A DNA stretch of 20,000 nucleotides from an uncultured virus (IMG/VR IMGVR_UViG_3300027754_000077) (Duplodnaviria; Heunggongvirae; Uroviricota; Caudoviricetes): the IMG/VR virus record IMGVR_UViG_3300027754_000077; one strand, 5' to 3'. The position numbers and the translations under genes are program-made. Every line of letters begins with the position of its first letter. Position 1 is the stretch's first letter. This document shows, piece by piece, positions 2,809 through 14,269 of this stretch. The notes beneath the pieces are model-generated. The model did not search any database. It had not been told where the DNA came from and worked only from the letters and a program-made list of their open reading frames with translations.

Positions 2809-3030
2809 ATTTATATTTTACAAGAAAGAAAAAAAAATCCTTAAAAAAAATGACCTTCACTAATTAGGAAAAGAATATATTAATTAATCTTAATTAATCT
2901 AAATTAGAACTAAGGAAAAAAAAATATGTATAATAAAATAGAGAATGCCGTCAGTGTAAGGAAAAGGGCGTAAATATTCTCACACAATCTTAATTGAAGG
3001 TTAAAAACAATTTTTAAACAAAAATAAAAT

Positions 3031-3240: not shown

Positions 3241-3657
3241 ATGAAAATAACTAAAACAATATTGAATTTAACTGCTTTTTTTGCTGTTTTTTCTTCTTCT
3301 TATTCACAAGCTACTTTTGGCAGACCACATATAAACTCTGTTATCGGACGAGTGAATGTTTTACCAAATGTAAGAGTGATTGATTTTGGAAGGTTGATAT
3401 ACCAAGGTAGAATGGATGTCAATCCTACGGTAGAAAGAATTAGATTGGGTAAAAAATTAAACCACAATAATGATGGTACATTTTTTTCTAATTCCCTACG
3501 TAAACTTCCAGTAAGCACAGATGTTCAATATTATAGAGAATTTGTCCATCAAATGAACGGTTTTCCTTTCCCAGGCTCACAAAGAGTGGTAATTGGAAAA
3601 AAAGGTGAAGTTTTTTATACAGGTGATCATTATTCAACTTTTTTTAGAGTAAGGTAA
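3241..3657 (+). CDS. Secreted microbial ribonuclease (barnase/RNase Sa family)
   Basis: Signal peptide (MKITK...AFFAVFSSSYSQA); motifs FSNSLRKLP, YYREF, GSQRVV and FYTGDHYSTF keep the catalytic Glu/Arg/His. SD-like AAGGA upstream. Confidence 0.85.
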   Translation: MKITKTILNLTAFFAVFSSSYSQATFGRPHINSVIGRVNVLPNVRVIDFGRLIYQGRMDVNPTVERIRLGKKLNHNNDGTFFSNSLRKLPVSTDVQYYREFVHQMNGFPFPGSQRVVIGKKGEVFYTGDHYSTFFRVR

Positions 3658-3676: not shown

Positions 3677-4684
3677 ATGAGTGAAATTGCATCTGAGAAT
3701 AAATTAGTTGAAAAAACACAGTCTGAAAAAGCTATTTCAAAAAAAAATGAAGTGGATGATGAGCCAGAAAAAAGAATTATTTACTTAGCATCTGAATTAC
3801 CTGGGGTCCCAGAAGTAATAGATCTTATTAATTACGATACATCCCCACCTTACATTTCTATTTTTGAGGATAAAGAAGGATTTTTGGAAGCTGATGCTAG
3901 TCTTATTTATCAGGATGAGCGCAAAACACAACGCTTGCGTCCATTATCAGGCTCAAGCTTAGATTCGAAAATACCTAAGGAAAAGGATAAAACAACATTT
4001 CGAGAAAGATTATTACATAAAAAAAGTTCATTTCTGTCTAGAGCAATTTTTTTGATTAATCTTTTCTTTTTGAAAGAAAAATACTCAAATTTTTTCACGA
4101 ATTTTAATTGGGGAATAGCCCCACAGCTAATGCCAGAAGATGTTTTTCAAGCAAAAGTTTTGAACTTGACTAAGTTTAATCGCAATAAATTGATGAAAAA
4201 GCATGGCATCAGTGAAGCAGAACTCAATTTTATTGCTTTTGCTAGGTTTCGTTATCCGTTTATAACAAGAGGTGAAGAAGAGTGGACAGAAATTGAAAAA
4301 AACGCCTTAGCATTCATTAAAAGAGGCTGGATATCAGAAGACATTAGGGGTAATTTCAAAATAAATGTTGGAAATGTTTACGAATTCAGAGATAGCATTA
4401 TTTTTTCTGAGCAATTTAAAGACATTATTTTCAAAAAAGTTTTTAAATCAAAGACTTTGCATAAGATTTTGAGGAAGATTGAAAGAAGTGCGAAAACTCA
4501 AGTTCACATTTATAATATCTCTCAAATTAGCAAACTTCCTTTCACACAATTCGGGAATAGCAATAGCTCTACACATTCTATTGTTGGTAAAAATGACTTA
4601 GAGGTGAGCAATTCAATCAAAAAAGAACCTATTTGTTTCACGAAAGATAGAATTTTAAAAGTAAAAAAAACTGAAACTTTTTAA
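3677..4684 (+). CDS. Hypothetical protein
   Basis: 335-aa ORF preceded by GTGTATAAAT-N5-ATG; no family recognised. Confidence 0.7.
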   Translation: MSEIASENKLVEKTQSEKAISKKNEVDDEPEKRIIYLASELPGVPEVIDLINYDTSPPYISIFEDKEGFLEADASLIYQDERKTQRLRPLSGSSLDSKIPKEKDKTTFRERLLHKKSSFLSRAIFLINLFFLKEKYSNFFTNFNWGIAPQLMPEDVFQAKVLNLTKFNRNKLMKKHGISEAELNFIAFARFRYPFITRGEEEWTEIEKNALAFIKRGWISEDIRGNFKINVGNVYEFRDSIIFSEQFKDIIFKKVFKSKTLHKILRKIERSAKTQVHIYNISQISKLPFTQFGNSNSSTHSIVGKNDLEVSNSIKKEPICFTKDRILKVKKTETF

Positions 4685-4731
4685 AAGGTAATTACGTCTT
4701 ATAATCATAATATTTAAAAAAGGAAACTAAA

Positions 4732-4785
4732 ATGACAAATTCGCTACGACATCTCTATCCAGCCTACGCACCCTCATCGGGGTAG
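4732..4785 (+). CDS. Leader peptide of tRNA array 1 (MTNSLRHLYPAYAPSSG*)
   Basis: AAGGAAA SD-like site, ATG 4732, TAG 4783-4785, ending 27 nt before an intrinsic terminator. Confidence 0.75.
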   Translation: MTNSLRHLYPAYAPSSG

Positions 4786-4822
4786 TGGCTAGTCGCGTAT
4801 TTGACAAGCTACAAACCCCCGA
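4777..4822 (+). promoter_or_regulatory. Antiterminator hairpin of attenuator 1
   Basis: TCGGGG (4777) pairs with CCCCGA (4817-4822, terminator 5' arm); GTGGCTAGTC pairs with GACAAGCTAC. Confidence 0.7.
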
Positions 4823-4849
4823 AGGACAAAAACTTTCGGGGGTTTTTTT
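4813..4849 (+). terminator. Intrinsic terminator (attenuator) upstream of tRNA array 1
   Basis: AAACCCCCGAAGG-acaaaaa-CTTTCGGGGGTTT followed by a T run. Confidence 0.9.
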
Positions 4850-4853
4850 ATTA

Positions 4854-4873
4854 TGAACATTGACAATTAAATA
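4854..4873 (+). promoter_or_regulatory. boxA-like antitermination element
   Basis: TGAACATTGACAATTAAATA, 17/20 identical to 9488-9507, and similar to rrn boxA TGCTCTTTAACA. Confidence 0.5.
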
Positions 4874-4965
4874 TCGTGGTGGTACCAAGGTTGAATTAAA
4901 CTCTCTCTAAGTGGTGACCCGTAAGTGGATGACTAAGGACGCCCTTCATCCAGCCGAAAATTCAT

Positions 4966-5044
4966 CTACATGTTGAGGAGTTTGGCTTACCTCGCAATCC
5001 TTGGGAGATTGAGTACGCTGGTTCAAATCCAGCCATGTAGACCA
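4966..5044 (+). tRNA. trnP: tRNA-Pro(UGG)
   Basis: Acceptor CTACATG/CATGTAG, anticodon arm CAATC-CTTGGGA-GATTG, TTCAAAT T-loop, encoded CCA. Confidence 0.9.
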
Positions 5045-5049
5045 AGTTT

Positions 5050-5134
5050 GGGGATATCGCATAGCGGCAATTGCAGAAGACTGTAAATCTTCTATCGAAA
5101 GATTTCGTAGGTTCGAGTCCTACTGTCCCCACCA
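5050..5134 (+). tRNA. trnY: tRNA-Tyr(GUA)
   Basis: GAAGA-CTGTAAA-TCTTC, long variable arm, CCA. Confidence 0.95.
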
Positions 5135-5141
5135 AATTTTC

Positions 5142-5220
5142 GTGAAATGGGACTGCTGGGGGTGGTCGCCAAGCTTGCACCTTGGATATCAGGTGGGTTC
5201 GAATCCCACATTTTACACCA
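5142..5220 (+). tRNA. trnA: tRNA-Ala(UGC)
   Basis: CCAAG-CTTGCAC-CTTGG, G3:U70 pair, A73, CCA; atypical G8 and D-arm. Confidence 0.88.
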
Positions 5221-5224
5221 TAAT

Positions 5225-5307
5225 ACCGAAGTGGCGTAATGTAGCCGCGATAGTCTTAGAAACTATTGTCTTTTGACGTGTGGGTTCAAATCCCACCTTC
5301 GGTACCA
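5225..5307 (+). tRNA. trnL: tRNA-Leu(UAG)
   Basis: ATAGT-CTTAGAA-ACTAT, long variable arm, ACCGAAG/CTTCGGT acceptor, CCA. Confidence 0.93.
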
Positions 5308-5310
5308 CAT

Positions 5311-5387
5311 AAGTGAGTAGCTTAAATGGTAGAGCTCTTTGGTTGTGACCCAGAGGCGCGTGGGTTCAAATCCCACCTCACTGACCA
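5311..5387 (+). tRNA. trnH: tRNA-His(GUG), atypical acceptor end
   Basis: TTTGG-TTGTGAC-CCAGA anticodon arm; A1:G72 mismatch, A73, no encoded G-1. Confidence 0.85.
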
Positions 5388-5701
5388 TTTTTTAAATCAT
5401 AAAATATTCTTGGAACATATTTAAAGTTCATGAAATTCATTTGTTGTGTATTTTTTTCTTCATTAAATAAAGGCTCTTCAATAACTGCTGGTGGTTCAGG
5501 TATAGGTGGCTTTATAAGCGCAGGCTCGTTAGCAGGCGAATTTTGTTTTTGGTTATATTCTCTTCCTAAAATTTTACAGGTTTCACAAGTGTTTCCAGTA
5601 AATTGCCAGATTGTGTTCCCCCCTGGCATTTGTTCAATGTAGCATTTGCAACCTTCATGTACCGGAGGTAGAATTTTTTTTTGAGAATATCTATACCACA
5701 C
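5378..5701 (-). CDS. Small Cys/His protein with MuF-like (PPxHxxCxC) motif
   Basis: PPVHEGCKC...W...TCETC; GTG start MWY; AGG at -34. Confidence 0.7.
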   Translation of the reverse strand: MWYRYSQKKILPPVHEGCKCYIEQMPGGNTIWQFTGNTCETCKILGREYNQKQNSPANEPALIKPPIPEPPAVIEEPLFNEEKNTQQMNFMNFKYVPRIFYDLKNGQ

Positions 5702-5736
5702 AATCTGAATTTACTAATTTTTTATTGGATATCCTG

Positions 5737-7449
5737 CTAAGTTGAGGGTCTATACCACGGGAATAAGGTCCCCAACTGTTTTTTAATCTTATCTGATATA
5801 TTTGGATTAATTTCAAGACTATAAGGATTTATGCGACCAAATTCTGCAAATTCTTTGATGAATCTTTCAGACAATTTTTGGTTACGTGAAATCACAGTCC
5901 AATCCACACGGTCTGCAAAATCTTTGATCAAATCCTCAGACAATTTTTGGTGCCATGAAATTTCCTTCCAATTCACACGGTCTGCAAATTCTATGATGAA
6001 ATCCTCAGACAATTTTTGTTTAGCTGAAATACTCCACCAATCCACACGGTTTTTAAATTCTCTGATGAATTCTTCAGATAGTGGTTGTTTACGTGAAATT
6101 TCATTCCAATCCACGCGGTCTGCAAATGTTCTAATTACTTTTTCAGGTATTGGATAATTCTTCAAGACTTTATCCATGTCTAAACTGTCTTCGAAATCTA
6201 AAATAAAATCTCCAGATAGTGTTTGGTATTGTGAAATTATGTCCCAATCCAAACTGTCTGCAAATTCACGAATGAATTCTTCAGACAATAGTGGGCGGCT
6301 TGAAATCAAATCCCAAGCTACACGATCTGCACTTAATCCCTTACTAAACAAGTATCTCAGCATTTCTTCTGGTGCGTTAACATAATAAAAATTATAATTA
6401 TTTATACCTTTTTCATTTATGATTTCATCAATTAATTCAAAATCTCCAGATCTCAAAGCATAGTCTTTTACACGCCAATCATCATTCCCAAGATGTTTTT
6501 TAATCTCTTCTATTGCAATGTTTCTTCTTCTGTTATAAGTGGCTCTGTATTGATTATTGCCAAAAAGCATAGCTTTTTGGCTTGGAGGGATACTAATTCC
6601 TGTATTAAGATATTGTTCAATCAAAAAATCAGCTGTATTATTTGATGTCACAGATTGTAAATTAATAATAGACTCTAATTGTTGATCAGTTAAAAGATGC
6701 CCCCTGCCTATATATTTAGATTTATATTCTGCTGGCAACTCTTCAAACCAATTTGGTGTAACATTTCTTTTTCCTAATAATTCATTTTCTTTTCTTTCTT
6801 CTTCTGTTACGGGTTTATTTACAAATATTGATGTATCTACACCATTTTGTCTAAGATAATCAAAATAAGTTTCATAATCATTGCCAAACTCAGCTATTGT
6901 CCCAGTTTGATTATTTTTGTCAGTAAGTTTTACGATACCTTTTGCTTGCATATCAACCATCACTCTTGATAATGGATCTTCTGGTGGTCTTGTCCCATCA
7001 CTTACATAGTAAAAAGTGGATTGGTAATTATCCCTGTAGGATTGAAACATTGTATTTCCAGGTTGTGATATACACCATGATGTTCCTGCACCATATCTAA
7101 TTGTATCGTTAACACTATTACAAGCAAATACTTGTATCTCTCCAGGTGTAAAATTAATTTTTTCTTTAGTTAATTCTTTTTGTTCTTTTTTTTGTTTTAA
7201 AAAAATCAATTCAGTATAAAGAGCGTCCACTGCTTCGGTAAATTCAAGAAAATCTGTGTAAAATTTATTATCGAACATCACTCCATCTTTTCTTAATTCT
7301 ATAATTGGAAGTTTATTTGCTTTATCAAGCTCATTTAGTCTCTCACTAAGTTGGGAAGTATTGTGCCCTTGATTACTGAAATAATCTGCAATCTTCCTTA
7401 TTATATGTTCTTTGCCAGCTATAATTATTTTTGCAAATCTATACCACAC
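5737..7449 (-). CDS. Tryptophan-repeat protein, paralog A
   Basis: 570 aa; N-terminal GAGTSWCIS domain and C-terminal 23-aa repeats (LSEEFIREFxDRVDWxxISxxQ). Confidence 0.9.
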   Translation of the reverse strand: MWYRFAKIIIAGKEHIIRKIADYFSNQGHNTSQLSERLNELDKANKLPIIELRKDGVMFDNKFYTDFLEFTEAVDALYTELIFLKQKKEQKELTKEKINFTPGEIQVFACNSVNDTIRYGAGTSWCISQPGNTMFQSYRDNYQSTFYYVSDGTRPPEDPLSRVMVDMQAKGIVKLTDKNNQTGTIAEFGNDYETYFDYLRQNGVDTSIFVNKPVTEEERKENELLGKRNVTPNWFEELPAEYKSKYIGRGHLLTDQQLESIINLQSVTSNNTADFLIEQYLNTGISIPPSQKAMLFGNNQYRATYNRRRNIAIEEIKKHLGNDDWRVKDYALRSGDFELIDEIINEKGINNYNFYYVNAPEEMLRYLFSKGLSADRVAWDLISSRPLLSEEFIREFADSLDWDIISQYQTLSGDFILDFEDSLDMDKVLKNYPIPEKVIRTFADRVDWNEISRKQPLSEEFIREFKNRVDWWSISAKQKLSEDFIIEFADRVNWKEISWHQKLSEDLIKDFADRVDWTVISRNQKLSERFIKEFAEFGRINPYSLEINPNISDKIKKQLGTLFPWYRPST

Positions 7450-7519
7450 AATCTGAATTTCCTAAATTTGTATCGGATATCCTGCTGCTTTCAGATTGTG
7501 TTTGGTTTGGTCTGAGATG

Positions 7520-9265
7520 TTAGGGTTTTTTAAATTTTAGCTTGTAATAAACATTGAGTTTGGTTTGTCTTGAGATTTTAGGGTTTTGTGAAATCCCATC
7601 CCAACTCAAACGTTCTGCAAATTCTTTGATGAAATCCTCCGATAGTGTTTGATTGAATGAAATCCCGCGCCAATCCACACTATCTGCAAATTCACGAATG
7701 AATTCTTCAGATAGTGTTTGTTTTTTTGAAATATTATACCAATTCACCTTATCTTTGAATTTTCTGATAAAATCTTCGGATAGTGTTTGGTAATGTGAAA
7801 TATTACCCCAACCCAAACGACCTGCAAAATCTTTGATGAAATCCTCAGATAGTTTTTGACGCCGTGGAATTTCATCCCAAATCACACGGTCTACAAAATT
7901 TCTAATTATTTTTTCAGGTATTGGATAATTCCTCAAGACTTTATCCATGTCTAAACGTTTAGCAAATTCTAAAATAAAATCTCCAGATAGATTTTGGTAA
8001 GAGGAAATATAATTCCAATACACATCATCTTTGTATCTTCTGATAAAATCTTCAGATAGTATTTGCATTCGTGAAATCTCAAACCAACCAAGACGATCTT
8101 GAAATTCTTCAATAAAATTTTCAGATAGTGAATTGTCTGAAACCCACTCCCAAGCTACATTATCTGCACTTAATCCCTTGCTGAACAAGTATCTCAGCAT
8201 TTCTTCGGGTGCTTTTATATCATAAAAATTTCTTATGTCTTTTTCATTTATGATTTCATCAATTAATTCAAAATCTCCATGTTCTAAAGCATATCTTGTT
8301 AGACTATACTTATCATTCCCAAACTCTTCTTTAATCTCTTTTATTGCAATTGCTCTTCTTCTGTCATAAGTGTCTTTGTATTGTTTTTTGCCAAAAAGCA
8401 TATCTTTTTGACTTTGAGGAATACTAACTCCTGTATTAAGATATTGTTCAATCAAATATCCAGATATTGTTGGTAAATTAATAATGAATTTTAATTGTTC
8501 ATCCGTTAAAAGATGTCCTCTTCCTATATATTTAAGTTGTAATTTTAATGGTAACTTTTCAAACCAATTTGGTGTAACATTTCTGTATTCTAATAATTCA
8601 TTTTCATTTATTTCTTCTTCTGTTAGAGTTTTATTTACAAATTGTGATGTATCTACACCGTTTTTTCTAAGATAATCAAAATAAGCTTCATGATCTTCGT
8701 CAAACTCAGCTATTGTCCCAGTGCGATTATTTTTGTCCGTAAGTTTTACGATACCATTTGCTTGCATATCAACCATCACTCTTGATAATGGATCTTCTGG
8801 TGGTCTGGTGCCATCATTTACATAGTAAAAAGTAGATTGGTATTTATTCTTATAGGATTGAAATTCTGTATTTCCAGGCTGTGATATACACCAACTTGTT
8901 CCTGCGCCATATCTAATTGCGTCATTGACATCATTGCAGGCAACTACTTGTATCTTTCCTGGTACAAAATCAATTTTTTCTTTAGTTAATTCTTTTTGTT
9001 CTTTTATTTGTTTGGAGAAAACTAATATAGTATGAAGAGCATCTACAGCTTCGGTAAATTTAAGAAAATCTGTGTAAATGTTATTATCAAACATCACTCC
9101 ATCTTTTCTTAATTCTATAATTGGAAGTTTATTTGCTTTATCAAGCTCATTTAGTCTCTCACTAAGTTGGGAAGGATCCTGCCCTTGATCGCTAAAATAT
9201 TCTGCAATCTTCCTTATTATATGTTCTTTGCCAGCTATAATTATTTTTGCAAATTTATACCACAC
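7520..9265 (-). CDS. Tryptophan-repeat protein, paralog B
   Basis: 581 aa; tandem duplicate of 5737-7449 with a closely similar N-terminal half and a diverged repeat array. Confidence 0.9.
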   Translation of the reverse strand: MWYKFAKIIIAGKEHIIRKIAEYFSDQGQDPSQLSERLNELDKANKLPIIELRKDGVMFDNNIYTDFLKFTEAVDALHTILVFSKQIKEQKELTKEKIDFVPGKIQVVACNDVNDAIRYGAGTSWCISQPGNTEFQSYKNKYQSTFYYVNDGTRPPEDPLSRVMVDMQANGIVKLTDKNNRTGTIAEFDEDHEAYFDYLRKNGVDTSQFVNKTLTEEEINENELLEYRNVTPNWFEKLPLKLQLKYIGRGHLLTDEQLKFIINLPTISGYLIEQYLNTGVSIPQSQKDMLFGKKQYKDTYDRRRAIAIKEIKEEFGNDKYSLTRYALEHGDFELIDEIINEKDIRNFYDIKAPEEMLRYLFSKGLSADNVAWEWVSDNSLSENFIEEFQDRLGWFEISRMQILSEDFIRRYKDDVYWNYISSYQNLSGDFILEFAKRLDMDKVLRNYPIPEKIIRNFVDRVIWDEIPRRQKLSEDFIKDFAGRLGWGNISHYQTLSEDFIRKFKDKVNWYNISKKQTLSEEFIREFADSVDWRGISFNQTLSEDFIKEFAERLSWDGISQNPKISRQTKLNVYYKLKFKKP

Positions 9266-9354
9266 AATCTGAATTTCAAGAAAAAAATAAAAAAACCTAA
9301 TTTTTACAGAACAAATAGGAGATTGTGTCGTATATATATAATAAGGAAATAATT

Positions 9355-9420
9355 ATGAAATTAAATTTGCAGGGCAGTATTGGATGTTTTATGTGGTCAA
9401 CCCAAGGGGGTAGTGGCTAA
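9355..9420 (+). CDS. Leader peptide of tRNA array 2 (MKLNLQGSIGCFMWSTQGGSG*)
   Basis: AAGGAAA SD-like site, ATG 9355, TAA 9418-9420, ending 27 nt before the terminator. Confidence 0.75.
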   Translation: MKLNLQGSIGCFMWSTQGGSG

Positions 9421-9456
9421 AATCCTGCTGTAAGCAAAATTTTCACCAAAATCCCT
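9406..9456 (+). promoter_or_regulatory. Antiterminator hairpin of attenuator 2
   Basis: AGGGG pairs with TCCCT (terminator 5' arm), with nested GTG/CAC, AAAAT/ATTTT and TGCT-gta-AGCA helices. Confidence 0.6.
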
Positions 9457-9486
9457 GAAGACCAAAAAAACTTCAGGGATTTTTTT
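9448..9486 (+). terminator. Intrinsic terminator (attenuator) upstream of tRNA array 2
   Basis: AAAATCCCTGAAG-accaaaaaaa-CTTCAGGGATTTT followed by a T run. Confidence 0.9.
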
Positions 9487-9487
9487 A

Positions 9488-9507
9488 TGTACTTTGACAA
9501 TAAAATA
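9488..9507 (+). promoter_or_regulatory. boxA-like antitermination element
   Basis: TGTACTTTGACAATAAAATA directly after the terminator; conserved with 4854-4873. Confidence 0.5.
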
Positions 9508-9511
9508 ATGA

Positions 9512-9587
9512 GCGATATTGATGTTAATGGTTAGCATACCTGGCTTCCAACCAGATTGTGTCAGTTCAAGTCTGACATATCGCTCCA
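9512..9587 (+). tRNA. trnG: tRNA-Gly(UCC)
   Basis: GCGATAT/ATATCGC acceptor, U73, CTGG-CTTCCAA-CCAG, CCA. Confidence 0.92.
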
Positions 9588-9591
9588 ATAT

Positions 9592-9667
9592 GGATTTCAG
9601 GTGTAGCTGGTGTGCACGAAGCGCTGAAGACGCTTAGGATAGAGTTCAATTCTCTGGGAATCCACCA
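9592..9667 (+). tRNA. trnF: tRNA-Phe(GAA)
   Basis: AAGCG-CTGAAGA-CGCTT, GGATTTC/GGAATCC acceptor, CCA. Confidence 0.88.
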
Positions 9668-9677
9668 AATTTTTTAA

Positions 9678-9764
9678 GGAAGGTAATGCTGAATGGTTTT
9701 GGCGAATGTTTGCTAAACATTTCGGACTGAAAGGTCTCTGGTTCAATTCCAGTGCCTTCCTCCA
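9678..9764 (+). tRNA. trnS: tRNA-Ser(GCU)
   Basis: AATGT-TTGCTAA-ACATT, long variable arm, CCA. Confidence 0.9.
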
Positions 9765-9828
9765 TATACGGGGAGTGACCAGTTGGCTCTGTGCAGGAGT
9801 GGTTTTATTAAGTTTTGAATATTCACAT

Positions 9829-10335
9829 ATGAGAAAACCAAACACTCAATGCTCAATCTGCTCGAATGAAATTTATCGCAGACCATTTCAAATAAAAGCA
9901 CAAATAAAATTTTATTGTTCTAGTTGTAATCCATCTAAAAAAACAAATAAACTTGCAGAAAAGAAATGCCCAGTGTGTCAAAATTTTTTCAAACCAGATA
10001 GTTCAAAATCTACATTTTGTAGTCGTAGTTGTTCAAATAAAAGCCGTTGTGGAATTCATTACCGCAAAGATGGAAATGTATGGAATAATAAATCTAAACT
10101 CAGATTGTCAATACTTTTGACTGAGTTTGCTATTACATCTTGTATGGTTGAGGGATGCAACTATAATATCACTTATGATATTCATAGACACATACCTGGA
10201 AAAGAAGGTGGTGAATATAAAATAGGAAATATGTTTGCTATCTGCCCAAACCATCATGCAGAGGTTTCTCGCGGTATAATTATTTTGGAAAAAGTAAGCG
10301 ATAGTAAATTAAAAATAAAGGAAGTGCTGTCATAG
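9829..10335 (+). CDS. Free-standing HNH homing endonuclease with N-terminal Cys zinc-finger repeats
   Basis: DIHRHIPGKEGGEYKIGNMFAICPNHH and CPVC...FCSRSC. The start is most likely ATG 9829 (AGG at -34); the track's start at 9706 lies inside tRNA-Ser. Confidence 0.85.
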   Translation: MRKPNTQCSICSNEIYRRPFQIKAQIKFYCSSCNPSKKTNKLAEKKCPVCQNFFKPDSSKSTFCSRSCSNKSRCGIHYRKDGNVWNNKSKLRLSILLTEFAITSCMVEGCNYNITYDIHRHIPGKEGGEYKIGNMFAICPNHHAEVSRGIIILEKVSDSKLKIKEVLS

Positions 10336-10406
10336 GTGTGATAAACCGTCTTGAAAACGGCTGGGCTGATAAGGTCTTGAGAGTTCGAATCTCTCCGCTT
10401 CCGCCA
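10320..10406 (+). tRNA. trnS: tRNA-Ser(UGA)
   Basis: GGAAGTG/CGCTTCC acceptor, CCGT-CTTGAAA-ACGG, long variable arm, G73, CCA; the 5' end overlaps the last HNH codons. Confidence 0.88.
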
Positions 10407-10413
10407 AGTTTAT

Positions 10414-10487
10414 GTTGTCTCTAGCTCAGTTGGTAGAGCGTCCCACTGCAGGGGAAGGCGAAGGTTCAATTCCTTCGGGCAACACCA
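10414..10487 (+). tRNA. tRNA-like gene with aberrant anticodon arm (identity undetermined)
   Basis: Good D-arm, T-arm, acceptor and CCA. The anticodon arm is only TCCC-ACTGCAG-GGGA (4 bp, no U33). Confidence 0.65.
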
Positions 10488-10493
10488 TTTTAC

Positions 10494-10580
10494 TGAGGAA
10501 TAGTGTAATTGGTAACACGCTAGGTTTTGACCCTAGAGACATATTTGCTTGTCCACGTTCGAATCGTGGTTCCTCAGCCA
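10494..10580 (+). tRNA. trnQ: tRNA-Gln(UUG) with extended variable region
   Basis: CTAGG-TTTTGAC-CCTAG, U1:A72, G73, CCA; 16-nt variable region. Confidence 0.88.
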
Positions 10581-10581
10581 T

Positions 10582-10656
10582 ATCCGAGTAGCTCAATGGC
10601 AGAGCATAATCTATATAAGATTGAGGTTTTTGGTTCAAATCCAAATTCGGATACCA
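10582..10656 (+). tRNA. tRNA-Ile(UAU)-like, A at position 33
   Basis: TAATC-TATATAA-GATTG, ATCCGAG/TTCGGAT acceptor, A73, CCA. Confidence 0.7.
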
Positions 10657-10661
10657 ATTTC

Positions 10662-10735
10662 GGCAAATTAGCTTAATGGTAGAGCGCAGATTTCATACAT
10701 CTAAGACAAAAGTTCGATTCTTTTATTTGCCCCCA
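10662..10735 (+). tRNA. tRNA with CAU anticodon (elongator Met or Ile2)
   Basis: AGAT-TTCATAC-ATCT, GGCAAAT/ATTTGCC acceptor, CCA. Confidence 0.85.
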
Positions 10736-10738
10736 AAC

Positions 10739-10812
10739 GCACGATTAGCCAAGAGGCAAGGCGAGGGTCTGCAAAATCCTGATCACTGGTTCAAGTCCAG
10801 TATCGTGCTCCA
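10739..10812 (+). tRNA. trnC: tRNA-Cys(GCA)
   Basis: AGGGT-CTGCAAA-ATCCT, U73, CCA. Confidence 0.93.
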
Positions 10813-10815
10813 TAT

Positions 10816-10889
10816 ACCAGAGAGAGTAGGTTGTTCCAATAGGTCTTCGAAACCTTTTTGCCTGGGTTCAAATCCCAGCTCTGGTGCCA
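10816..10889 (+). tRNA. trnR: tRNA-Arg(UCG), degenerate D-arm
   Basis: AGGT-CTTCGAA-ACCT, ACCAGAG/CTCTGGT acceptor, good T-arm, CCA. Confidence 0.75.
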
Positions 10890-10977
10890 TTTTTATTTGA
10901 TGGGTATTTGATAAAAACGTTTTTTTTCTGTTTTTTAGATTCAAAAATTCTCTTTTTTTATTTGATGGTCATTTGAT
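10890..10977. repeat. Imperfect 23-bp direct repeat TTTTTATTTGATGGnnATTTGAT x2
   Basis: Copies at 10890-10912 and 10955-10977. Confidence 0.7.
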
Positions 10978-10996
10978 TACCTTCACACAAAACAAA

Positions 10997-11305
10997 TTAT
11001 GAGACCAGCTCAATTGTGTGTGGTGCATTTTCTGAAATGTTAAATAGCCCATTTCCCAATTCATATTTCTTACCAAGGTCATCAATAAATGTTTGAAATT
11101 CCATTTCAAGTTTTTCTATCATTTCTTGATTAGCTCTAAATTCTTCTTGCAAAGAAGCCATTTGTTTTTCTACATTTCTCAACATGTCAAATATGTCAGA
11201 GCGCTTGCCTTTCAAGTTTAATACCCCAGAACGAAGCTGTGCATAATTATTAAATTCTTCTTTAGTTAAAGCTTTTTCAGATTGTGTAGATGAGTTAAAT
11301 TTCAT
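10997..11305 (-). CDS. Coiled-coil hypothetical protein
   Basis: 102-aa heptad-rich ORF downstream of the amidase. Confidence 0.75.
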   Translation of the reverse strand: MKFNSSTQSEKALTKEEFNNYAQLRSGVLNLKGKRSDIFDMLRNVEKQMASLQEEFRANQEMIEKLEMEFQTFIDDLGKKYELGNGLFNISENAPHTIELVS

Positions 11306-12216: not shown

Positions 12217-12762
12217 ATGACATTAAATTGTAATATTCCCCATTTCGAATGTTATGTGAAAAAAGAATTTTTAACCAACTTTACACAATCTGATGCTTTG
12301 ATTAAAGCTAAAGCTTTTGCTATTAGTAGCACTAGAGGGCAGGTGCTGCAATTTCATGTTTTAACAGAACATGGAGCAATGTTTTCCAAACTTCCCGTTC
12401 ATTCTTTAGTATTGAAAAAAGATTATGAAAAAATGAATTTAGAAAATTTAGTCACTTATGATGCTTTTAGTTTTCATGTTTCTAATATCACTTATGATTA
12501 TTTAAAGTATTTAAGATGTGAATATTATTCGGGCGAAAAAAGAATTAAATATGATGCCACTTACTTCACTACAGTGGATTTTTATGATTCTGAATATTCT
12601 GATCATCCAGGCATAGCAAAATGCTGTCACATTTTATTTTTAGACAATGGCAACATTGCAGCTGCGCCAAACAATAGAATTTTGTGGCATGATACAGGAT
12701 TGCAGCCAGATGTTTCTAAAATAGATTATAAGCCATTGAATAAAATTTTTACAGTAGAATGA
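12217..12762 (+). CDS. Conserved phage hypothetical protein
   Basis: 181 aa; LNCNIP and GNIAAAPNNRILWHD resemble motifs I recall from uncharacterised phage proteins. Confidence 0.75.
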   Translation: MTLNCNIPHFECYVKKEFLTNFTQSDALIKAKAFAISSTRGQVLQFHVLTEHGAMFSKLPVHSLVLKKDYEKMNLENLVTYDAFSFHVSNITYDYLKYLRCEYYSGEKRIKYDATYFTTVDFYDSEYSDHPGIAKCCHILFLDNGNIAAAPNNRILWHDTGLQPDVSKIDYKPLNKIFTVE

Positions 12763-13544
12763 AAATATTTTTTGATCATATTCTTTTTCAGCAAACTGAT
12801 TATAATTTTAATCATACACTTGTTACAGCAATTTTTGAAAAAGATGAATTTGATTATGCTTTAGAAAATGGTTTTTTCCCTGATAATTTTTGGCTCAATG
12901 AAAATACCAAACATTCAATTCGATGTAAAAAACCTGGCGAATTTGTTTGGGTTCCAGTGAGATCTTCTAGAATTGTAGTGAAAGATTTTGTTTTGAATAA
13001 AAAAGATAGAAGATTGTTAAAAAATAATGTTTTAACAAAAAATGTAAAAGCCAATGAAATAAATTATGAAGAATTTTATGAAGTGTATTTGAAATATATT
13101 CGTGCAAAAAAATTTGAAGATTATAAAGACAATTTACAAGATTTTATAGATGGTTTTTGCCGAAATGATTTTGAGTTTTTAGAATATAGGCTAGACAATA
13201 AACTTATTGGTTTTTGCTTGATTCAAGTTTTTCAAAATAGTTTAGTATCATACCAATTTTGCTGGGATTATGAAAATTCTAAATTGAGTTTAGGTAAATT
13301 TTCACAAATACAAGAAGTGGAGTATGCTAAATCATTAGGATTTGATTATGTTTACATTGGCTGTGTTGCTGAAAATGCAGGAATTTATAAAATAAATTTT
13401 CCAGGCTTTGAATATTATAATTCTGGCAAGTGGCGAAGAAAAGACAGTTTAATTCAAAAATGGCTTGGAAATGATTCAGATTGTGTGAGTATTTTGGAAC
13501 TTTTGTGTTTAGAAAAAGAATATATAAAGGATTATAGCGTATAA
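12759..13544 (+). CDS. Aminoacyl-tRNA--protein transferase, ATE1/Bpt-like (ATE_C GNAT fold)
   Basis: LEYRLDNKLIG...SYQFCWD...LSLGKFSQIQEVEYAKSLGFDYVYIG...YKINFPGFEY matches the ATE C-terminal pattern. Confidence 0.8.
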   Translation: MKIFFDHILFQQTDYNFNHTLVTAIFEKDEFDYALENGFFPDNFWLNENTKHSIRCKKPGEFVWVPVRSSRIVVKDFVLNKKDRRLLKNNVLTKNVKANEINYEEFYEVYLKYIRAKKFEDYKDNLQDFIDGFCRNDFEFLEYRLDNKLIGFCLIQVFQNSLVSYQFCWDYENSKLSLGKFSQIQEVEYAKSLGFDYVYIGCVAENAGIYKINFPGFEYYNSGKWRRKDSLIQKWLGNDSDCVSILELLCLEKEYIKDYSV

Positions 13545-13561
13545 ATTGTTAATTCCAGATT

Positions 13562-14269
13562 GTGTTAAAGTCGATTTTATATTTAAATTATTTAGATAGT
13601 ATTAGCAAATACAAAAAAGCAGATACACAATCTTTATTAATTTTAAAAAAATTTGCAATGACTAACGCAGATGCATACAGAATTTTAAATGTATCTGCAA
13701 ATTCCTCACCAGAAGAAATAAAATCTGCATACAGAAACATGGCATTAAAATTTCATCCTGATATTAATCCAAATGCAAACCCTGATGAAATGATTAATAT
13801 TAATCTTGCATATGAAAAAATTAAAGAAGCACCTTTACAGAACTCACCTAGTAATCAAAGTAATTATAACAATAATAATTATCGGGATAACGATTTTGAA
13901 ATTGCTAATCGCTTAAAAGAACAAAAGGAAGATCTCAGAAAAAATTTACCTAAAATTAAAGAATTTTTTATCAACCAATTATTTAATTCTGAAATTTTTA
14001 AAAAATTATGGAGCTCTGATGAATTAATTATATACAATAAAAAAAGAAGAAAGCATTTTAAGAAAAAATATGAGAATTATGAATTTCCTCTACACGATAA
14101 TTTATATGATTTTATTTACGATTTAATAAAAATAATTGAAAAAAAATATCCATTTGCCGCTTTTTATACTACTAATTTTATGAATATTTTAGAAACCGCA
14201 AAGGTTTATGGGAAAAATCCAAAAGATGAAATAAGTAAGTATTTTGATGATTATTTCTCTGAATTTTAA
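13562..14269 (+). CDS. DnaJ (J-domain) protein
   Basis: AYRILNVSANSSPEEIKSAYRNMALKFHPDINP with an intact HPD motif. Confidence 0.9.
   Translation: MLKSILYLNYLDSISKYKKADTQSLLILKKFAMTNADAYRILNVSANSSPEEIKSAYRNMALKFHPDINPNANPDEMININLAYEKIKEAPLQNSPSNQSNYNNNNYRDNDFEIANRLKEQKEDLRKNLPKIKEFFINQLFNSEIFKKLWSSDELIIYNKKRRKHFKKKYENYEFPLHDNLYDFIYDLIKIIEKKYPFAAFYTTNFMNILETAKVYGKNPKDEISKYFDDYFSEF

What the first reader, a model, noticed from the sequence alone, without database searches (positions are those of the whole stretch)
4720..10889. Codon-matched leader-peptide attenuators controlling phage tRNA arrays (putative tRNA-depletion sensor)
Seen: both arrays share one layout: AAGGAAA SD, short ORF, GGGGTAGTGGCTA at the ORF end, terminator 27 nt after the stop, boxA-like 20-mer, then tRNAs. 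The two leaders are otherwise unrelated, yet each matches its own array. Leader 1 codons 5-14 (LRHLYPAYAP) are 9/10 Leu/His/Tyr/Pro/Ala, the exact content of array 1. Leader 2 codons 6-21 (QGSIGCFMWSTQGGSG) are 14/16 Gln/Gly/Ser/Ile/Cys/Phe/Met, the content of array 2. Leader 1 has no Q/C/F/I and leader 2 has no P/Y/A/H. Established: trp/his-type attenuation senses charged tRNA through ribosome stalling, and host anticodon nucleases such as PrrC and VapC deplete tRNAs during infection. Inference: the phage monitors several tRNA species at once and transcribes replacements only when ribosomes stall. I know this mechanism for amino-acid biosynthesis and synthetase operons, not for tRNA gene arrays.
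Basis: partly seen in the sequence, partly recalled or inferred. Interest (0 to 1): 0.95.

Follow-up and report, generated by a model that had tools for sequence, protein, structure and literature searches.

The report
Leader-peptide attenuators gating phage tRNA arrays
Each of two tRNA gene clusters in this uncultured freshwater giant phage sits behind a tiny translated test gene wired to a switchable transcription stop, so the phage probably makes those tRNAs only when ribosomes read the matching codons slowly.

Summary
Both tRNA arrays are preceded by the same unit: a -10-like promoter, a purine-rich AAGGAAA, a 17- or 21-codon ORF, the 13-mer GGGGTAGTGGCTA, an intrinsic terminator 27 nt after the stop, and a TTGACAAT box.

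New here: the 13-mer lies in different reading frames in the two ORFs. It forms the 5' strand of an antiterminator (-23.5 and -16.7 kcal/mol) that competes with the terminator (-20.3 and -17.1).

Masking a ribosome footprint keeps the antiterminator while the P-site is on codons 1-10 (leader 1) or 1-13 (leader 2). It frees the terminator arm near the stop. This is clean in 4 of 4 leader-1 variants and 3 of 5 leader-2 variants.

The unit is intact in all 17 distinct copies, from 16 related contigs plus the window.

The match between leader residues and the downstream array is 23 of 36. This gives p=1e-4 against the proteome but only 0.02 against a composition-matched null. Array changes among relatives are not always mirrored in the leaders.

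Verdict: probably real ribosome-mediated attenuators. tRNA-specific sensing is plausible but unproven. Seven literature searches found no description. Earlier notes of this scan report similar units on other phage DNA.

The parts
4700..4705 (+). TATAAT, -10-like element of the leader-1 promoter
   Evidence: Read from the sequence. In relatives the same place holds AGATTGTGT plus TAATAT. Promoter activity is inferred, not shown.
4720..4726 (+). AAGGAAA, purine-rich ribosome-binding-like site 5 nt before the ATG
   Evidence: AGGAA is kept in all 7 distinct leader-1 copies. Only about 3 of 15 protein genes in the window have such a site.
4732..4785 (+). Leader ORF 1, 17 codons, MTNSLRHLYPAYAPSSG, stop TAG inside the 13-mer
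   Evidence: The ORF is intact in 7 of 7 distinct copies. Eight of the changes among relatives are synonymous third-position changes (read from the alignment).
4761..4790 (+). Hairpin P1. The 13-mer forms its 3' strand. Possible pause or anti-antiterminator hairpin.
   Evidence: -13.0 kcal/mol, z -2.35.
4772..4825 (+). Antiterminator 1: CCUCAUCGGGGUAGUGGCU pairs with AGCUACAAACCCCCGAAGG, which is the terminator's 5' arm
   Evidence: -23.5 kcal/mol, z -4.31. All 19 pairs can form in 7 of 7 copies, with 3 one-sided changes and 0 double changes. Ribosome masking.
4813..4849 (+). Intrinsic terminator 1: 13-bp stem followed by a T-run
   Evidence: -20.3 kcal/mol, z -4.16.
4855..4872 (+). Box 1, GAACATTGACAATTAAAT (boxA-like or -35-like)
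   Evidence: TTGACAAT is invariant in all 17 copies. Function unresolved.
4873..4965 (+). Conserved structured spacer of about 93 nt between the box and tRNA-Pro. Present in some lineages only.
   Evidence: 24 predicted pairs in 4 sequences, no double changes. Absent in L002. No Rfam match.
4966..5387 (+). tRNA array 1: Pro(tgg), Tyr(gta), Ala(tgc, atypical), Leu(tag), His(gtg)
   Evidence: Rfam confirms 4 of the 5, not the Ala.
9320..9342 (+). AGATTGTGTCGTATATATATAAT, promoter-like element of leader 2
   Evidence: Near-identical in 9 of 10 distinct leader-2 copies. The same AGATTGTGT-TATAAT arrangement sits directly upstream of tRNA-Asp in the 347-kb relative.
9343..9349 (+). AAGGAAA, 5 nt before the ATG of leader 2
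9355..9420 (+). Leader ORF 2, 21 codons, MKLNLQGSIGCFMWSTQGGSG, stop TAA
   Evidence: Relatives have 20, 21 or 22 codons, always in frame with the same stop place.
9394..9419 (+). Hairpin P1 of unit 2: UGGUCAACCC pairs with GGGUagUGGCUA
   Evidence: -10.3 kcal/mol, z -2.08.
9406..9456 (+). Antiterminator 2: GGGGGUagUGG, an inner hairpin, then CCAaaAUCCCU, which is the terminator's 5' arm
   Evidence: -16.7 kcal/mol, z -2.52. 93% of cells paired in 10 copies, 0 double changes. Ribosome masking.
9448..9486 (+). Intrinsic terminator 2: 13-bp stem followed by a T-run
   Evidence: -17.1 kcal/mol, z -5.34. The simple scan missed it because its loop has 10 nt. Between the window type and L005, a U-A pair in the stem is replaced by C-G (read).
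9489..9506 (+). Box 2, GTACTTTGACAATAAAAT (boxA-like)
   Evidence: Relatives read GTTCTTTGACA, which matches 10 of 11 positions of the gamma-proteobacterial boxA consensus GYTCTTTAANA (passage of PMC5725501).
9512..10889 (+). tRNA array 2: Gly, Phe, Ser(GCU)-like 9678-9760, an HNH endonuclease ORF at about 9829-10335, then Ser(tga), Ala(tgc), Gln, Ile(tat), Met, Cys, Arg(tcg)

Best explanation
These are two paralogous ribosome-mediated (leader-peptide) transcription attenuators, and each gates one tRNA array.

Proposed mechanism:
1. Transcription starts at a -10-type promoter just upstream of each leader.
2. The leader RNA can fold in two ways. One fold is an antiterminator, whose 5' strand is the end of the ORF plus the conserved GGGGUAGUGGCU. 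The other fold is the intrinsic terminator.
3. A ribosome that runs quickly to the stop codon, which lies inside or right at the end of the 13-mer, covers the antiterminator strand. The terminator then forms and the tRNA genes stay silent.
4. A ribosome that waits for an aminoacyl-tRNA within the first 10-13 codons leaves the antiterminator intact. RNA polymerase then reads through into the array.
5. Those early codons are enriched for the amino acids of the array behind them: L, H, Y, P, A before Pro-Tyr-Ala-Leu-His, and Q, G, S, I, C, F, M before Gly-Phe-Ser-Gln-Ile-Met-Cys. Each unit would therefore report the supply of its own tRNA set. New phage tRNA relieves the stall, which closes a negative feedback loop.

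Shown in silico: the parts, the two competing folds, their dependence on ribosome position, and their conservation.

Inferred: that the promoter is active, that the leader is translated, that the response is specific to particular codons, and what triggers it in nature (codon-usage mismatch with the host or tRNA cleavage by the host).
For: - Layout and coordinates.
- Competing folds of similar strength: -23.5 versus -20.3 and -16.7 versus -17.1 kcal/mol. The antiterminators score z -4.3 and -2.5 against shuffles.
- Ribosome-footprint masking on transcripts cut before the terminator's 3' arm:
  - Leader 1: 9-10 of 12-13 arm bases are sequestered with the P-site on codons 1-10, and 0 on codons 13-14, in 4 of 4 variants. 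From codon 15 to the stop the arm stays free or, in 3 of the 4, is held only by weak folds (2-7 bases, -0.8 to -7.7 kcal/mol).
  - Leader 2: the switch lies at codon 13/14 in 3 of 5 variants.
- The 13-mer is conserved although it is read in two different frames. A strand that must pair with two different partners would explain this.
- All 17 distinct copies, from the window and 16 related contigs, keep the start, frame and stop. Leader-2 length variants are 20, 21 and 22 codons.
- Only 25 nt separate the T-run from tRNA-Gly.
- The box occurs with no mismatch at only 3 places in the 347-kb relative, two of them the arrays. It is therefore not a general promoter.
- Seven other tRNA genes of that relative (Met, Asp-Asn-Thr, Lys, Arg-tct, Met-Glu) have a TATAAT 5-11 nt upstream and no leader.
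- Residue match to the unit's own array: window 23 of 36 (p=1.2e-4); L002 25 of 37 (p=1e-5); L005 20 of 35 (p=3e-4).
- Residues whose tRNAs lie elsewhere (D, N, T, K, R, E) make up only 5 of 37, against 38% expected (p=9e-4).
- A contig from one metatranscriptome run spans 4812-5002, that is terminator, box and the start of tRNA-Pro. This is weak evidence, because DNA carry-over is not excluded.
Against: - With a null built from each leader's own nucleotide composition, the own-array match is only p=0.02 and coverage p=0.05. The C-rich and G-rich strands that the RNA folds require could produce part of the Pro/Ala/Gly excess.
- No compensatory double change supports either antiterminator. The relatives are too alike (86-91% column identity).
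- The in-silico switch is unclear in 2 of 5 leader-2 variants (L2-2, L53-2). In W-2 and L5-2 a weak alternative pairing (-5 to -9 kcal/mol) reappears when the ribosome is at the stop.
- Array content changes without a matching leader change:
  - Val(tac) is present but the leader has no Val codon in L057/L068 and L005.
  - The last tRNA is Arg(tcg) in the window and Trp(cca) in L071/L074, although their leader 1 keeps CGA.
- Ala and Arg of array 2 have no codon in leader 2. T, N, K and W are in neither array of the window.
- The host is unknown, and most genes of the window lack a Shine-Dalgarno-like site. Efficient translation of the leaders is therefore assumed.
- No strand-specific or end-resolved RNA data exist.
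Confidence: 0.5

Rival explanations
1. A generic translation-coupled attenuator. The architecture works as described, but it reports overall translation capacity (ribosome availability, general starvation, translation shut-off). The leader's composition is a by-product of the RNA folds.
For: - The structural logic needs no particular codons.
- The match falls to p=0.02 under the composition-matched null.
- Leaders stay unchanged while arrays gain or lose Val, or swap Arg for Trp.
- The last 5-8 codons of both ORFs are clearly dictated by pairing.
Against: - The early codons lie outside the conserved helices, and they carry the match: leader 1 codons 5-10 read LRHLYP, and leader 2 codons 6-13 read QGSIGCFM.
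- Rare residues (C, H, M, Q, F, Y) are covered: 12 of 14 array amino-acid types appear within the 23 sensor-window residues, p=4e-5.
- D, E, K, N, T and R are depleted, p=9e-4.
- The diverged 5' part of the L005 leader 2 (RNSQFSQ) still draws on Ser, Gln and Phe.
Confidence: 0.22
2. Each promoter, small ORF and terminator is a separate short gene (a small protein or small RNA). The tRNA arrays are transcribed from the TTGACAAT box by a phage or host polymerase. The pairing of leaders with arrays is only a terminator-promoter junction that was duplicated as one block.
For: - In unrelated phages the same 'terminator, then CTTGACAATT' junction is a -35 element with a proper -10 17 nt later (L116/L200: TTGACA-17-TAAGAT and TTGACA-17-TATAAT).
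- The box is invariant in all 17 copies.
- Giant phages often have polymerases of their own (recalled; not tested here).
Against: - No conserved -10 follows the box. At the right spacing the window reads TACCAA, L005 TGCCAG and L065 CACCAA in array 1. In array 2 that position falls inside tRNA-Gly, which starts 10 nt after TTGACAAT ends.
- The box is not reused elsewhere in the 347-kb genome, so it is not a general phage promoter.
- This reading does not explain the antiterminator or the position of the stop codon.
Confidence: 0.15
3. An RNA-only switch that binds uncharged tRNA, like a T-box, with no translation of the ORF.
For: The conserved strand contains UGG facing CCA in the antiterminator of unit 2. 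This is reminiscent of the pairing between a T-box bulge and the tRNA's NCCA end (recalled).
Against: - No T-box match in Rfam even at E up to 1.
- The leader is about 130 nt, with no Stem I or specifier loop.
- The conserved start, frame and stop in 17 of 17 copies, and the in-frame length variants, point to translation.
Confidence: 0.03

Closest known systems
Leader-peptide transcription attenuators of enterobacterial amino-acid operons (trpL, hisL, leuL, pheL; multivalent thrL and ilvL) and of pheST (pheM). Recalled; pheL seen as an abstract in the listing.
   Same: A promoter-proximal short ORF. A terminator and an antiterminator that exclude each other. A stop codon placed so that a terminating ribosome blocks the antiterminator. 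Regulatory codons early in the ORF. As in thr and ilv, several amino acids are sampled at once.
   Different: The regulated genes are tRNA genes, not biosynthetic or synthetase genes, and they belong to a phage. There are no runs of one codon; 5-8 amino-acid types appear once or twice each. The output (tRNA) is itself the sensed molecule, so the loop is direct. There is no sequence homology: the Rfam His_leader match scores 26.8 bits against a cut-off of 49.
T-box riboswitches (recalled)
   Same: They sense tRNA status and choose between a terminator and an antiterminator upstream of translation-related genes.
   Different: T-boxes bind uncharged tRNA directly and need no ribosome. No Rfam match and no Stem I here.
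rrn-type boxA / Nus-factor antitermination (PMC5725501, passages read; further titles from the listing)
   Same: The box after the terminator reads GTTCTTTGACA in relatives, 10 of 11 against GYTCTTTAANA. It sits at the head of a long untranslated RNA operon, where protection from Rho would make sense.
   Different: The array-1 box (GAACATTGACA) matches only 7 of 11. The host and its own boxA are unknown. Binding of NusB/NusE is untested. In unrelated phages the same words serve as a -35 element.
Phage tRNA arrays as a supplement to, or counter-measure against, host tRNA shortage (recalled)
   Same: Clusters of phage tRNA genes, here in genomes that carry tRNAs for nearly all amino acids.
   Different: As far as my seven searches show, published work treats the tRNAs themselves and not a leader-peptide control of their transcription.

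Membership tests
Ribosome-mediated (leader-peptide) transcription attenuator | Short ORF with a start signal close to the promoter, upstream of the regulated genes | tested here: met
   ORFs 4732-4785 and 9355-9420 with AAGGAAA 5 nt upstream. Intact in 17 of 17 distinct copies.
Ribosome-mediated (leader-peptide) transcription attenuator | Intrinsic terminator between the leader ORF and the regulated genes | tested here: met
   Stems 4813-4845 and 9448-9483 followed by T-runs: -20.3 and -17.1 kcal/mol, z -4.2 and -5.3.
Ribosome-mediated (leader-peptide) transcription attenuator | Alternative antiterminator that uses the terminator's 5' arm | tested here: met
   4772-4825 (-23.5) and 9406-9456 (-16.7). 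Pairable in 100% and 93% of cells across relatives, but with no compensatory changes.
Ribosome-mediated (leader-peptide) transcription attenuator | Ribosome position decides the fold: a stall early in the ORF keeps the antiterminator, arrival at the stop removes it | tested here: inconclusive
   In-silico masking is clean in 4 of 4 leader-1 and 3 of 5 leader-2 variants and unclear in 2 of 5. This is a thermodynamic model only.
Ribosome-mediated (leader-peptide) transcription attenuator | Regulatory codons cognate to the regulated product | tested here: inconclusive
   23 of 36 own-array residues: p=1.2e-4 against the proteome null, 0.02 against the composition-matched null. Mixed covariation among relatives.
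Ribosome-mediated (leader-peptide) transcription attenuator | Read-through responds to the supply of charged tRNA | not testable with these tools
   Needs reporter, Term-seq or in-vitro coupled assays.
Rfam His_leader (RF00514) | Score at or above the family's gathering cut-off | tested here: not met
   26.8 bits against 49, E=0.99, at 4749-4851.
T-box riboswitch | Match to the T-box model, with Stem I, specifier and T-box sequence | tested here: not met
   No match at E up to 1 in the whole window.
boxA (Nus-factor antitermination site) | Match to the consensus GYTCTTTAANA | tested here: inconclusive
   Window box 2: 9 of 11. Box 2 of L002 and L005: 10 of 11. Box 1: 7 of 11. The consensus is for gamma-proteobacteria, and the host is unknown.
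boxA (Nus-factor antitermination site) | Binding of NusB/NusE and resistance to Rho termination | not testable with these tools

The most novel reading that the evidence does not exclude
A phage runs a multiplexed sensor of aminoacyl-tRNA supply. Each tRNA array is gated by its own leader peptide, written in the codons that array decodes. The phage would then transcribe exactly the tRNA set that ribosomes currently lack, whether because its AT-rich codon usage outruns the host pool or because the host cleaves tRNAs. It would shut the array off again once supply is restored. This would be the first case of leader-peptide attenuation that controls tRNA genes, with the sensed molecule also being the product.
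Probability: 0.45. Interest if true: 0.9.

Novelty: new variant of a known kind. Interest (0 to 1): 0.8.

Why it matters
Leader-peptide attenuation is textbook for amino-acid biosynthesis and for one synthetase operon. Seven full-text searches found no description of it for tRNA genes.

If it is real, three things follow:
- Phage tRNA genes would be regulated on demand rather than simply expressed.
- There would be a direct read-out of which tRNAs limit phage translation in a host that cannot yet be cultured.
- It would supply compact, natural, multi-amino-acid decoding sensors that could be moved into reporters.

The phenomenon may also be widespread. The scan's earlier, unchecked notes list similar units in many other phage genomes.

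Tried and rejected
- Whole-genome tools: no genome is held for this window. I used the records behind fetched loci instead.
- Cultured relatives: none. megablast of 4400-11000 found nothing. tblastn with the amidase found nothing. Distant blastn of 4692-5400 listed only tRNA similarities among its best rows.
- The search for related loci with the upstream 335-aa protein: 34 pattern matches, none confirmed.
- One viral scan was wasted on a tRNA-Pro pattern that I had mis-spaced: 0 hits.
- The loose pattern GGGTARTGGCT...TTGACAAT returned 39 loci in IMG/VR. Only the 4 loci from the two related contigs were real.
- In the metagenome scan, 7 of 30 loci were chance matches with no leader or tRNA: L046, L047, L048, L056, L061, L066, L070.
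Twelve matches had a tRNA within 300 nt. Six of these were from the known relatives and six from three unrelated phage types in which the box is a -35 element.
- Covariation: no compensatory change was found, because the relatives are too similar.
- Strict covariation between leader and array: rejected as a rule.
- RNA evidence: one metatranscriptome run, stored as contigs, holds 6% of the sampled words. It gives no strand and no ends. Uncovered bins mean nothing.
- The box as a general phage promoter: rejected.
- AGATTGTGT as nothing more than a promoter word: not tenable, because many copies lie inside genes and on both strands.
- PMC3890552 was read in passages. It has nothing on the control of tRNA genes.

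Full report
**What is there.**
The window is AT-rich phage DNA (32% G+C). It carries head-tail adaptor, endolysin, RusA and HNH genes. ARAGORN finds 14 tRNA genes in two same-strand arrays, at 4966-5387 and 9512-10889. Rfam confirms 12 of them with its tRNA model. It scores tRNA-Ser(tga) with its tRNA-Sec model only, below that cut-off. It adds a type-II tRNA at 9678-9760 that ARAGORN missed; by eye its anticodon is GCU (Ser). It does not confirm ARAGORN's tRNA-Ala at 5142-5220.

Each array is preceded by the same ordered set of parts:
- a -10-like element (TATAAT 4700-4705; AGATTGTGTCGTATATATATAAT 9320-9342);
- AAGGAAA (4720-4726; 9343-9349);
- a short ORF (4732-4785, MTNSLRHLYPAYAPSSG; 9355-9420, MKLNLQGSIGCFMWSTQGGSG);
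- the 13-mer GGGGTAGTGGCTA (4779 and 9407), found twice against 0.06 expected;
- 27 nt later, a 13-bp terminator stem with a T-run (4813-4849; 9448-9486);
- a box with TTGACAAT (4860; 9494).

I add three corrections. The 13-mer is read in different frames in the two ORFs. The two units are paralogous from the 13-mer onward. Array 2 also contains Ala, Arg and a second Ser tRNA.

**Relatives.**
No cultured phage is related. Pattern scans found the unit in two IMG/VR contigs, of 347 kb and 166 kb. They also found it in 23 of 30 metagenome loci from 14 contigs; the other 7 loci were chance matches. Together with the window this gives 7 distinct leader-1 and 10 distinct leader-2 sequences.

All 17 keep the start codon, the frame and the stop. 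Leader 1 always has 17 codons. Leader 2 has 20, 21 or 22, and the length changes are in frame. Eight of the differences in leader 1 are synonymous third-position changes at Leu, Pro, Ala and Ser codons. Seven change the residue, at positions 2, 4, 6, 8 and 12 (read). Two large paralogous genes lie between the arrays in the window (5737-9265, minus strand). They are absent in the 347-kb relative, where the two units are about 1 kb apart.

**The RNA switch.**
Folding shows why a 13-mer is conserved in two frames: it is the strand shared by two alternative helices. With upstream ORF sequence it forms hairpin P1 (4761-4790, -13.0 kcal/mol; 9394-9419, -10.3). With downstream sequence it forms a long antiterminator that takes up the 5' arm of the terminator. 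The antiterminators are 4772-4825 (-23.5 kcal/mol, z -4.3) and 9406-9456 (-16.7, z -2.5). The terminators score -20.3 and -17.1.

I then cut each transcript just before the terminator's 3' arm and masked a 27-nt ribosome footprint at every P-site codon.
- Leader 1: the terminator arm is held in the antiterminator (9-10 of 12-13 bases) with the ribosome on codons 1-10. It is partly held at codons 11-12 and free at codons 13-14, in 4 of 4 variants. From codon 15 to the stop it stays free or, in 3 of the 4, is held only by weak folds (2-7 bases, -0.8 to -7.7 kcal/mol).
- Leader 2: the change comes at codon 13/14 in 3 of 5 variants (W-2, L74-2, L5-2).
- In the other two (L2-2, L53-2), pairing of the arm with the 5' untranslated region blurs the picture.
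- In W-2 and L5-2 a weak alternative (-5 to -9 kcal/mol) reappears at the stop.

The antiterminator pairs can form in 100% (leader 1) and 93% (leader 2) of cells across relatives. There are one-sided changes only and no compensatory double change. The family is too uniform for covariation statistics. One terminator pair does change on both sides between the window type and L005 (U-A to C-G, read). This is the logic of the trp and his attenuators, which I cite from memory. Rfam's His_leader model even gives a sub-threshold match at 4749-4851 (26.8 bits against a cut-off of 49, E 0.99). That match is no evidence of membership.

**Do the tRNAs depend on read-through?**
Only 25 nt separate the T-run from tRNA-Gly, and tRNA-Gly begins 10 nt after TTGACAAT ends. 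In the 347-kb relative the same holds for array 1. No conserved -10 follows the box.

In that relative, seven further tRNA genes lie elsewhere: Met, Asp-Asn-Thr, Lys, Arg-tct and Met-Glu. Each locus has a TATAAT 5-11 nt upstream and neither leader nor terminator. The two arrays are therefore the exception. They share the same type of promoter, but it is placed in front of the leader.

The box occurs without mismatch at 3 places in 347 kb, two of them the arrays, so it is not a general promoter. In relatives it reads GTTCTTTGACA. That is 10 of 11 against the boxA consensus GYTCTTTAANA derived for gamma-proteobacteria (passage of PMC5725501). The array-1 box matches only 7 of 11. In unrelated phages the same words are a -35 element with a proper -10. 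Its role stays open. It could be boxA-like protection of a long untranslated transcript, a processing signal, or the relic of a -35.

One freshwater metatranscriptome run, stored as contigs, holds a 191-nt contig across 4812-5002. That covers the terminator, the box, the spacer and the start of tRNA-Pro. This is compatible with read-through. It is weak, because strand, ends and DNA carry-over cannot be judged.

**The codon match.**
Leaving out the initiator Met, 9 of 16 leader-1 residues belong to array 1's set (P, Y, A, L, H). For leader 2, 14 of 20 belong to array 2's set (G, F, S, A, Q, I, M, C, R).

| Test | Result |
|---|---|
| Own-array match against the window's proteome composition | p=1.2e-4 |
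| Own minus swapped pairing | p=1.3e-3 |
| Sensor windows set by the fold (11 and 12 residues) cover 12 of 14 array amino-acid types | p=4e-5 |
| L002 | 25 of 37, p=1e-5 |
| L005 | 20 of 35, p=3e-4 |
| D, N, T, K, R, E (tRNAs encoded elsewhere) | 5 of 37 against 38% expected, p=9e-4 |

L002 and L005 are related to the window, so these are not independent tests.

With a stricter null that draws codons from each leader's own base composition, the match is p=0.02 and coverage p=0.05. The other two frames of the same DNA give 4-5 (leader 1) and 9 (leader 2) own-set residues, against 9 and 15 in frame with Met counted.

Relatives give mixed signals.
- Fits the idea: a Val codon appears in leader 2 only in lineages whose array has tRNA-Val (3 of 5 such lineages; 0 of 2 without it).
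- Fits the idea: L005 has a second tRNA-Leu(gag) and a third Leu codon (CTC in place of Tyr).
- Fits the idea: L005 has no Ile codon and no tRNA-Ile called by ARAGORN. An unassigned tRNA-like gene with an insertion lies at that place, so this point is uncertain.
- Does not fit: two lineages have tRNA-Val but no Val codon.
- Does not fit: the last tRNA switches between Arg(tcg) and Trp(cca) without any change in the leaders.

So the match is real, better than proteome chance and specific to each array. It is not decisive, and it is not tracked tightly during evolution.

**Most likely mechanism.**
I commit to ribosome-mediated attenuation. I put the architecture being functional at about 0.75. 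I put the full statement, with the early codons reporting the supply of the array's own aminoacyl-tRNAs, at about 0.5. Fast decoding takes the ribosome onto the 13-mer, the terminator forms and the array is off. Slow decoding of the early codons leaves the antiterminator in place and the array is transcribed. Because the product is the limiting tRNA itself, the loop corrects itself. Whether the natural trigger is codon-usage mismatch or tRNA cleavage by the host cannot be told from sequence. The anticodon-nuclease idea is inference only.

The rivals are:
- a generic translation sensor (0.22);
- separate small genes with a box promoter (0.15);
- a T-box-like RNA switch (0.03).

The remainder is chance or no function.

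**Comparison and novelty.**
The unit works like the multivalent thr and ilv leaders and the pheST leader (recalled). It shares no sequence with them and fails the Rfam family thresholds. What is new is the target (tRNA genes), the owner (a phage) and the pairing of two differently spelled leaders with two arrays in one genome. Seven full-text searches found no description. The library lacks most subscription journals.

The scan's own earlier notes list 75 similar findings in at least 69 other genomes. They are unchecked AI notes, and I did not test them. Independently, I came across a similarly built unit in an unrelated phage (L116/L130). Its ORF ends in GGGGGTAGTGTAG. The strand after it repeats the terminator's 3' arm, and the unit is followed by TTATGATCCTTGACAATTAAATA. 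Its 38 residues after the Met use 19 of the 20 amino acids (P=0.014), ahead of a region with 21 tRNA genes by ARAGORN (17 by Rfam). There, however, a normal promoter follows the terminator.

I file the finding as a new variant of a known kind, of high interest, awaiting an experiment.

Noticed in passing
window, 17 sites (e.g. 2982-2990 minus strand, 5608-5616, 5698-5706 minus, 7446-7454 minus, 9262-9270 minus, 9320-9328, 13557-13565): The 9-mer AGATTGTGT occurs 17 times on both strands, against 0.2 expected. Some copies sit next to a TATAAT-like -10, as at leader 2. Others lie inside genes, where CAGATTGTGTGGTAT encodes QIVWY at the N-termini of three minus-strand ORFs. One lies inside tRNA-Gly. 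One gene carries an inverted pair about 90 nt apart. Function unknown.
   Followed up: partly
window 4873-4965: A conserved, structured element of about 93 nt lies between the box and tRNA-Pro. It is present in the window, L005, L065 and L074 and absent in L002, L053 and L057. It has no Rfam match. There are 24 predicted pairs and no compensatory change.
   Followed up: partly
window 5737-7449 and 7520-9265, minus strand: Two paralogous ORFs of 570 and 581 aa (PHROG 3532, function unknown). Each has five tandem 69-nt repeats. They lie between the two tRNA arrays here but are absent from the 347-kb relative. One has a weak RnlB-antitoxin-like match below the cut-off.
   Followed up: partly
window 10816-10889 and 10582-10656; L002 3442-3516 and 3132-3206: Homologous tRNAs differ in anticodon between close relatives. 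The last tRNA of array 2 is Arg(tcg) in the window and Trp(cca) in L002, L071 and L074. The Ile tRNA is tat in the window, with A at position 33 by eye, and gat in relatives.
   Followed up: partly
L005 about 13170-13075, minus strand, and about 11950-11852: The Gly-tRNA homologue at the head of array 2 carries an insertion of about 20 nt in the anticodon region. A second tRNA-like gene of about 100 nt lies at the Gln/Ile position. ARAGORN calls neither. Read by eye only.
   Followed up: no
window 9829-10335: An HNH endonuclease ORF (PHROG 1271, E 7e-12) is inserted inside tRNA array 2, between the two Ser tRNAs.
   Followed up: no
window, upstream of 15 protein-coding ORFs: Most genes have no Shine-Dalgarno-like site. 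Several have TGTAAAAT or TGTAAAATA 5-10 nt before the ATG. That looks like an extended -10 placed for leaderless or very short-leader mRNAs.
   Followed up: no
window 3241-3657 and 12759-13544: Two ORFs with RNA- or tRNA-related domains flank the arrays. One has a barnase/RNase-type ribonuclease domain (PF00545, E 1.5e-6). The other has an arginine-tRNA-protein transferase C-terminal domain (PF04377, E 1.9e-15).
   Followed up: no
L116 1319-1533 (same as L130); L200 407-640: An unrelated phage contig of 164 kb has a similarly built unit. Its 39-codon ORF ends in GGGGGTAGTGTAG. The strand after the stop repeats the terminator's 3' arm, giving an antiterminator. The unit is followed by TTATGATCCTTGACAATTAAATA and a region of 21 tRNA genes by ARAGORN (17 by Rfam). 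The leader uses 19 of the 20 amino acids (P=0.014). Here a normal TTGACA-17-TAAGAT promoter follows.
   Followed up: partly
L076-L080 (347-kb relative): That genome encodes tRNAs for nearly all amino acids. The seven outside the two arrays are dispersed, and each locus sits directly behind a TATAAT.
   Followed up: yes
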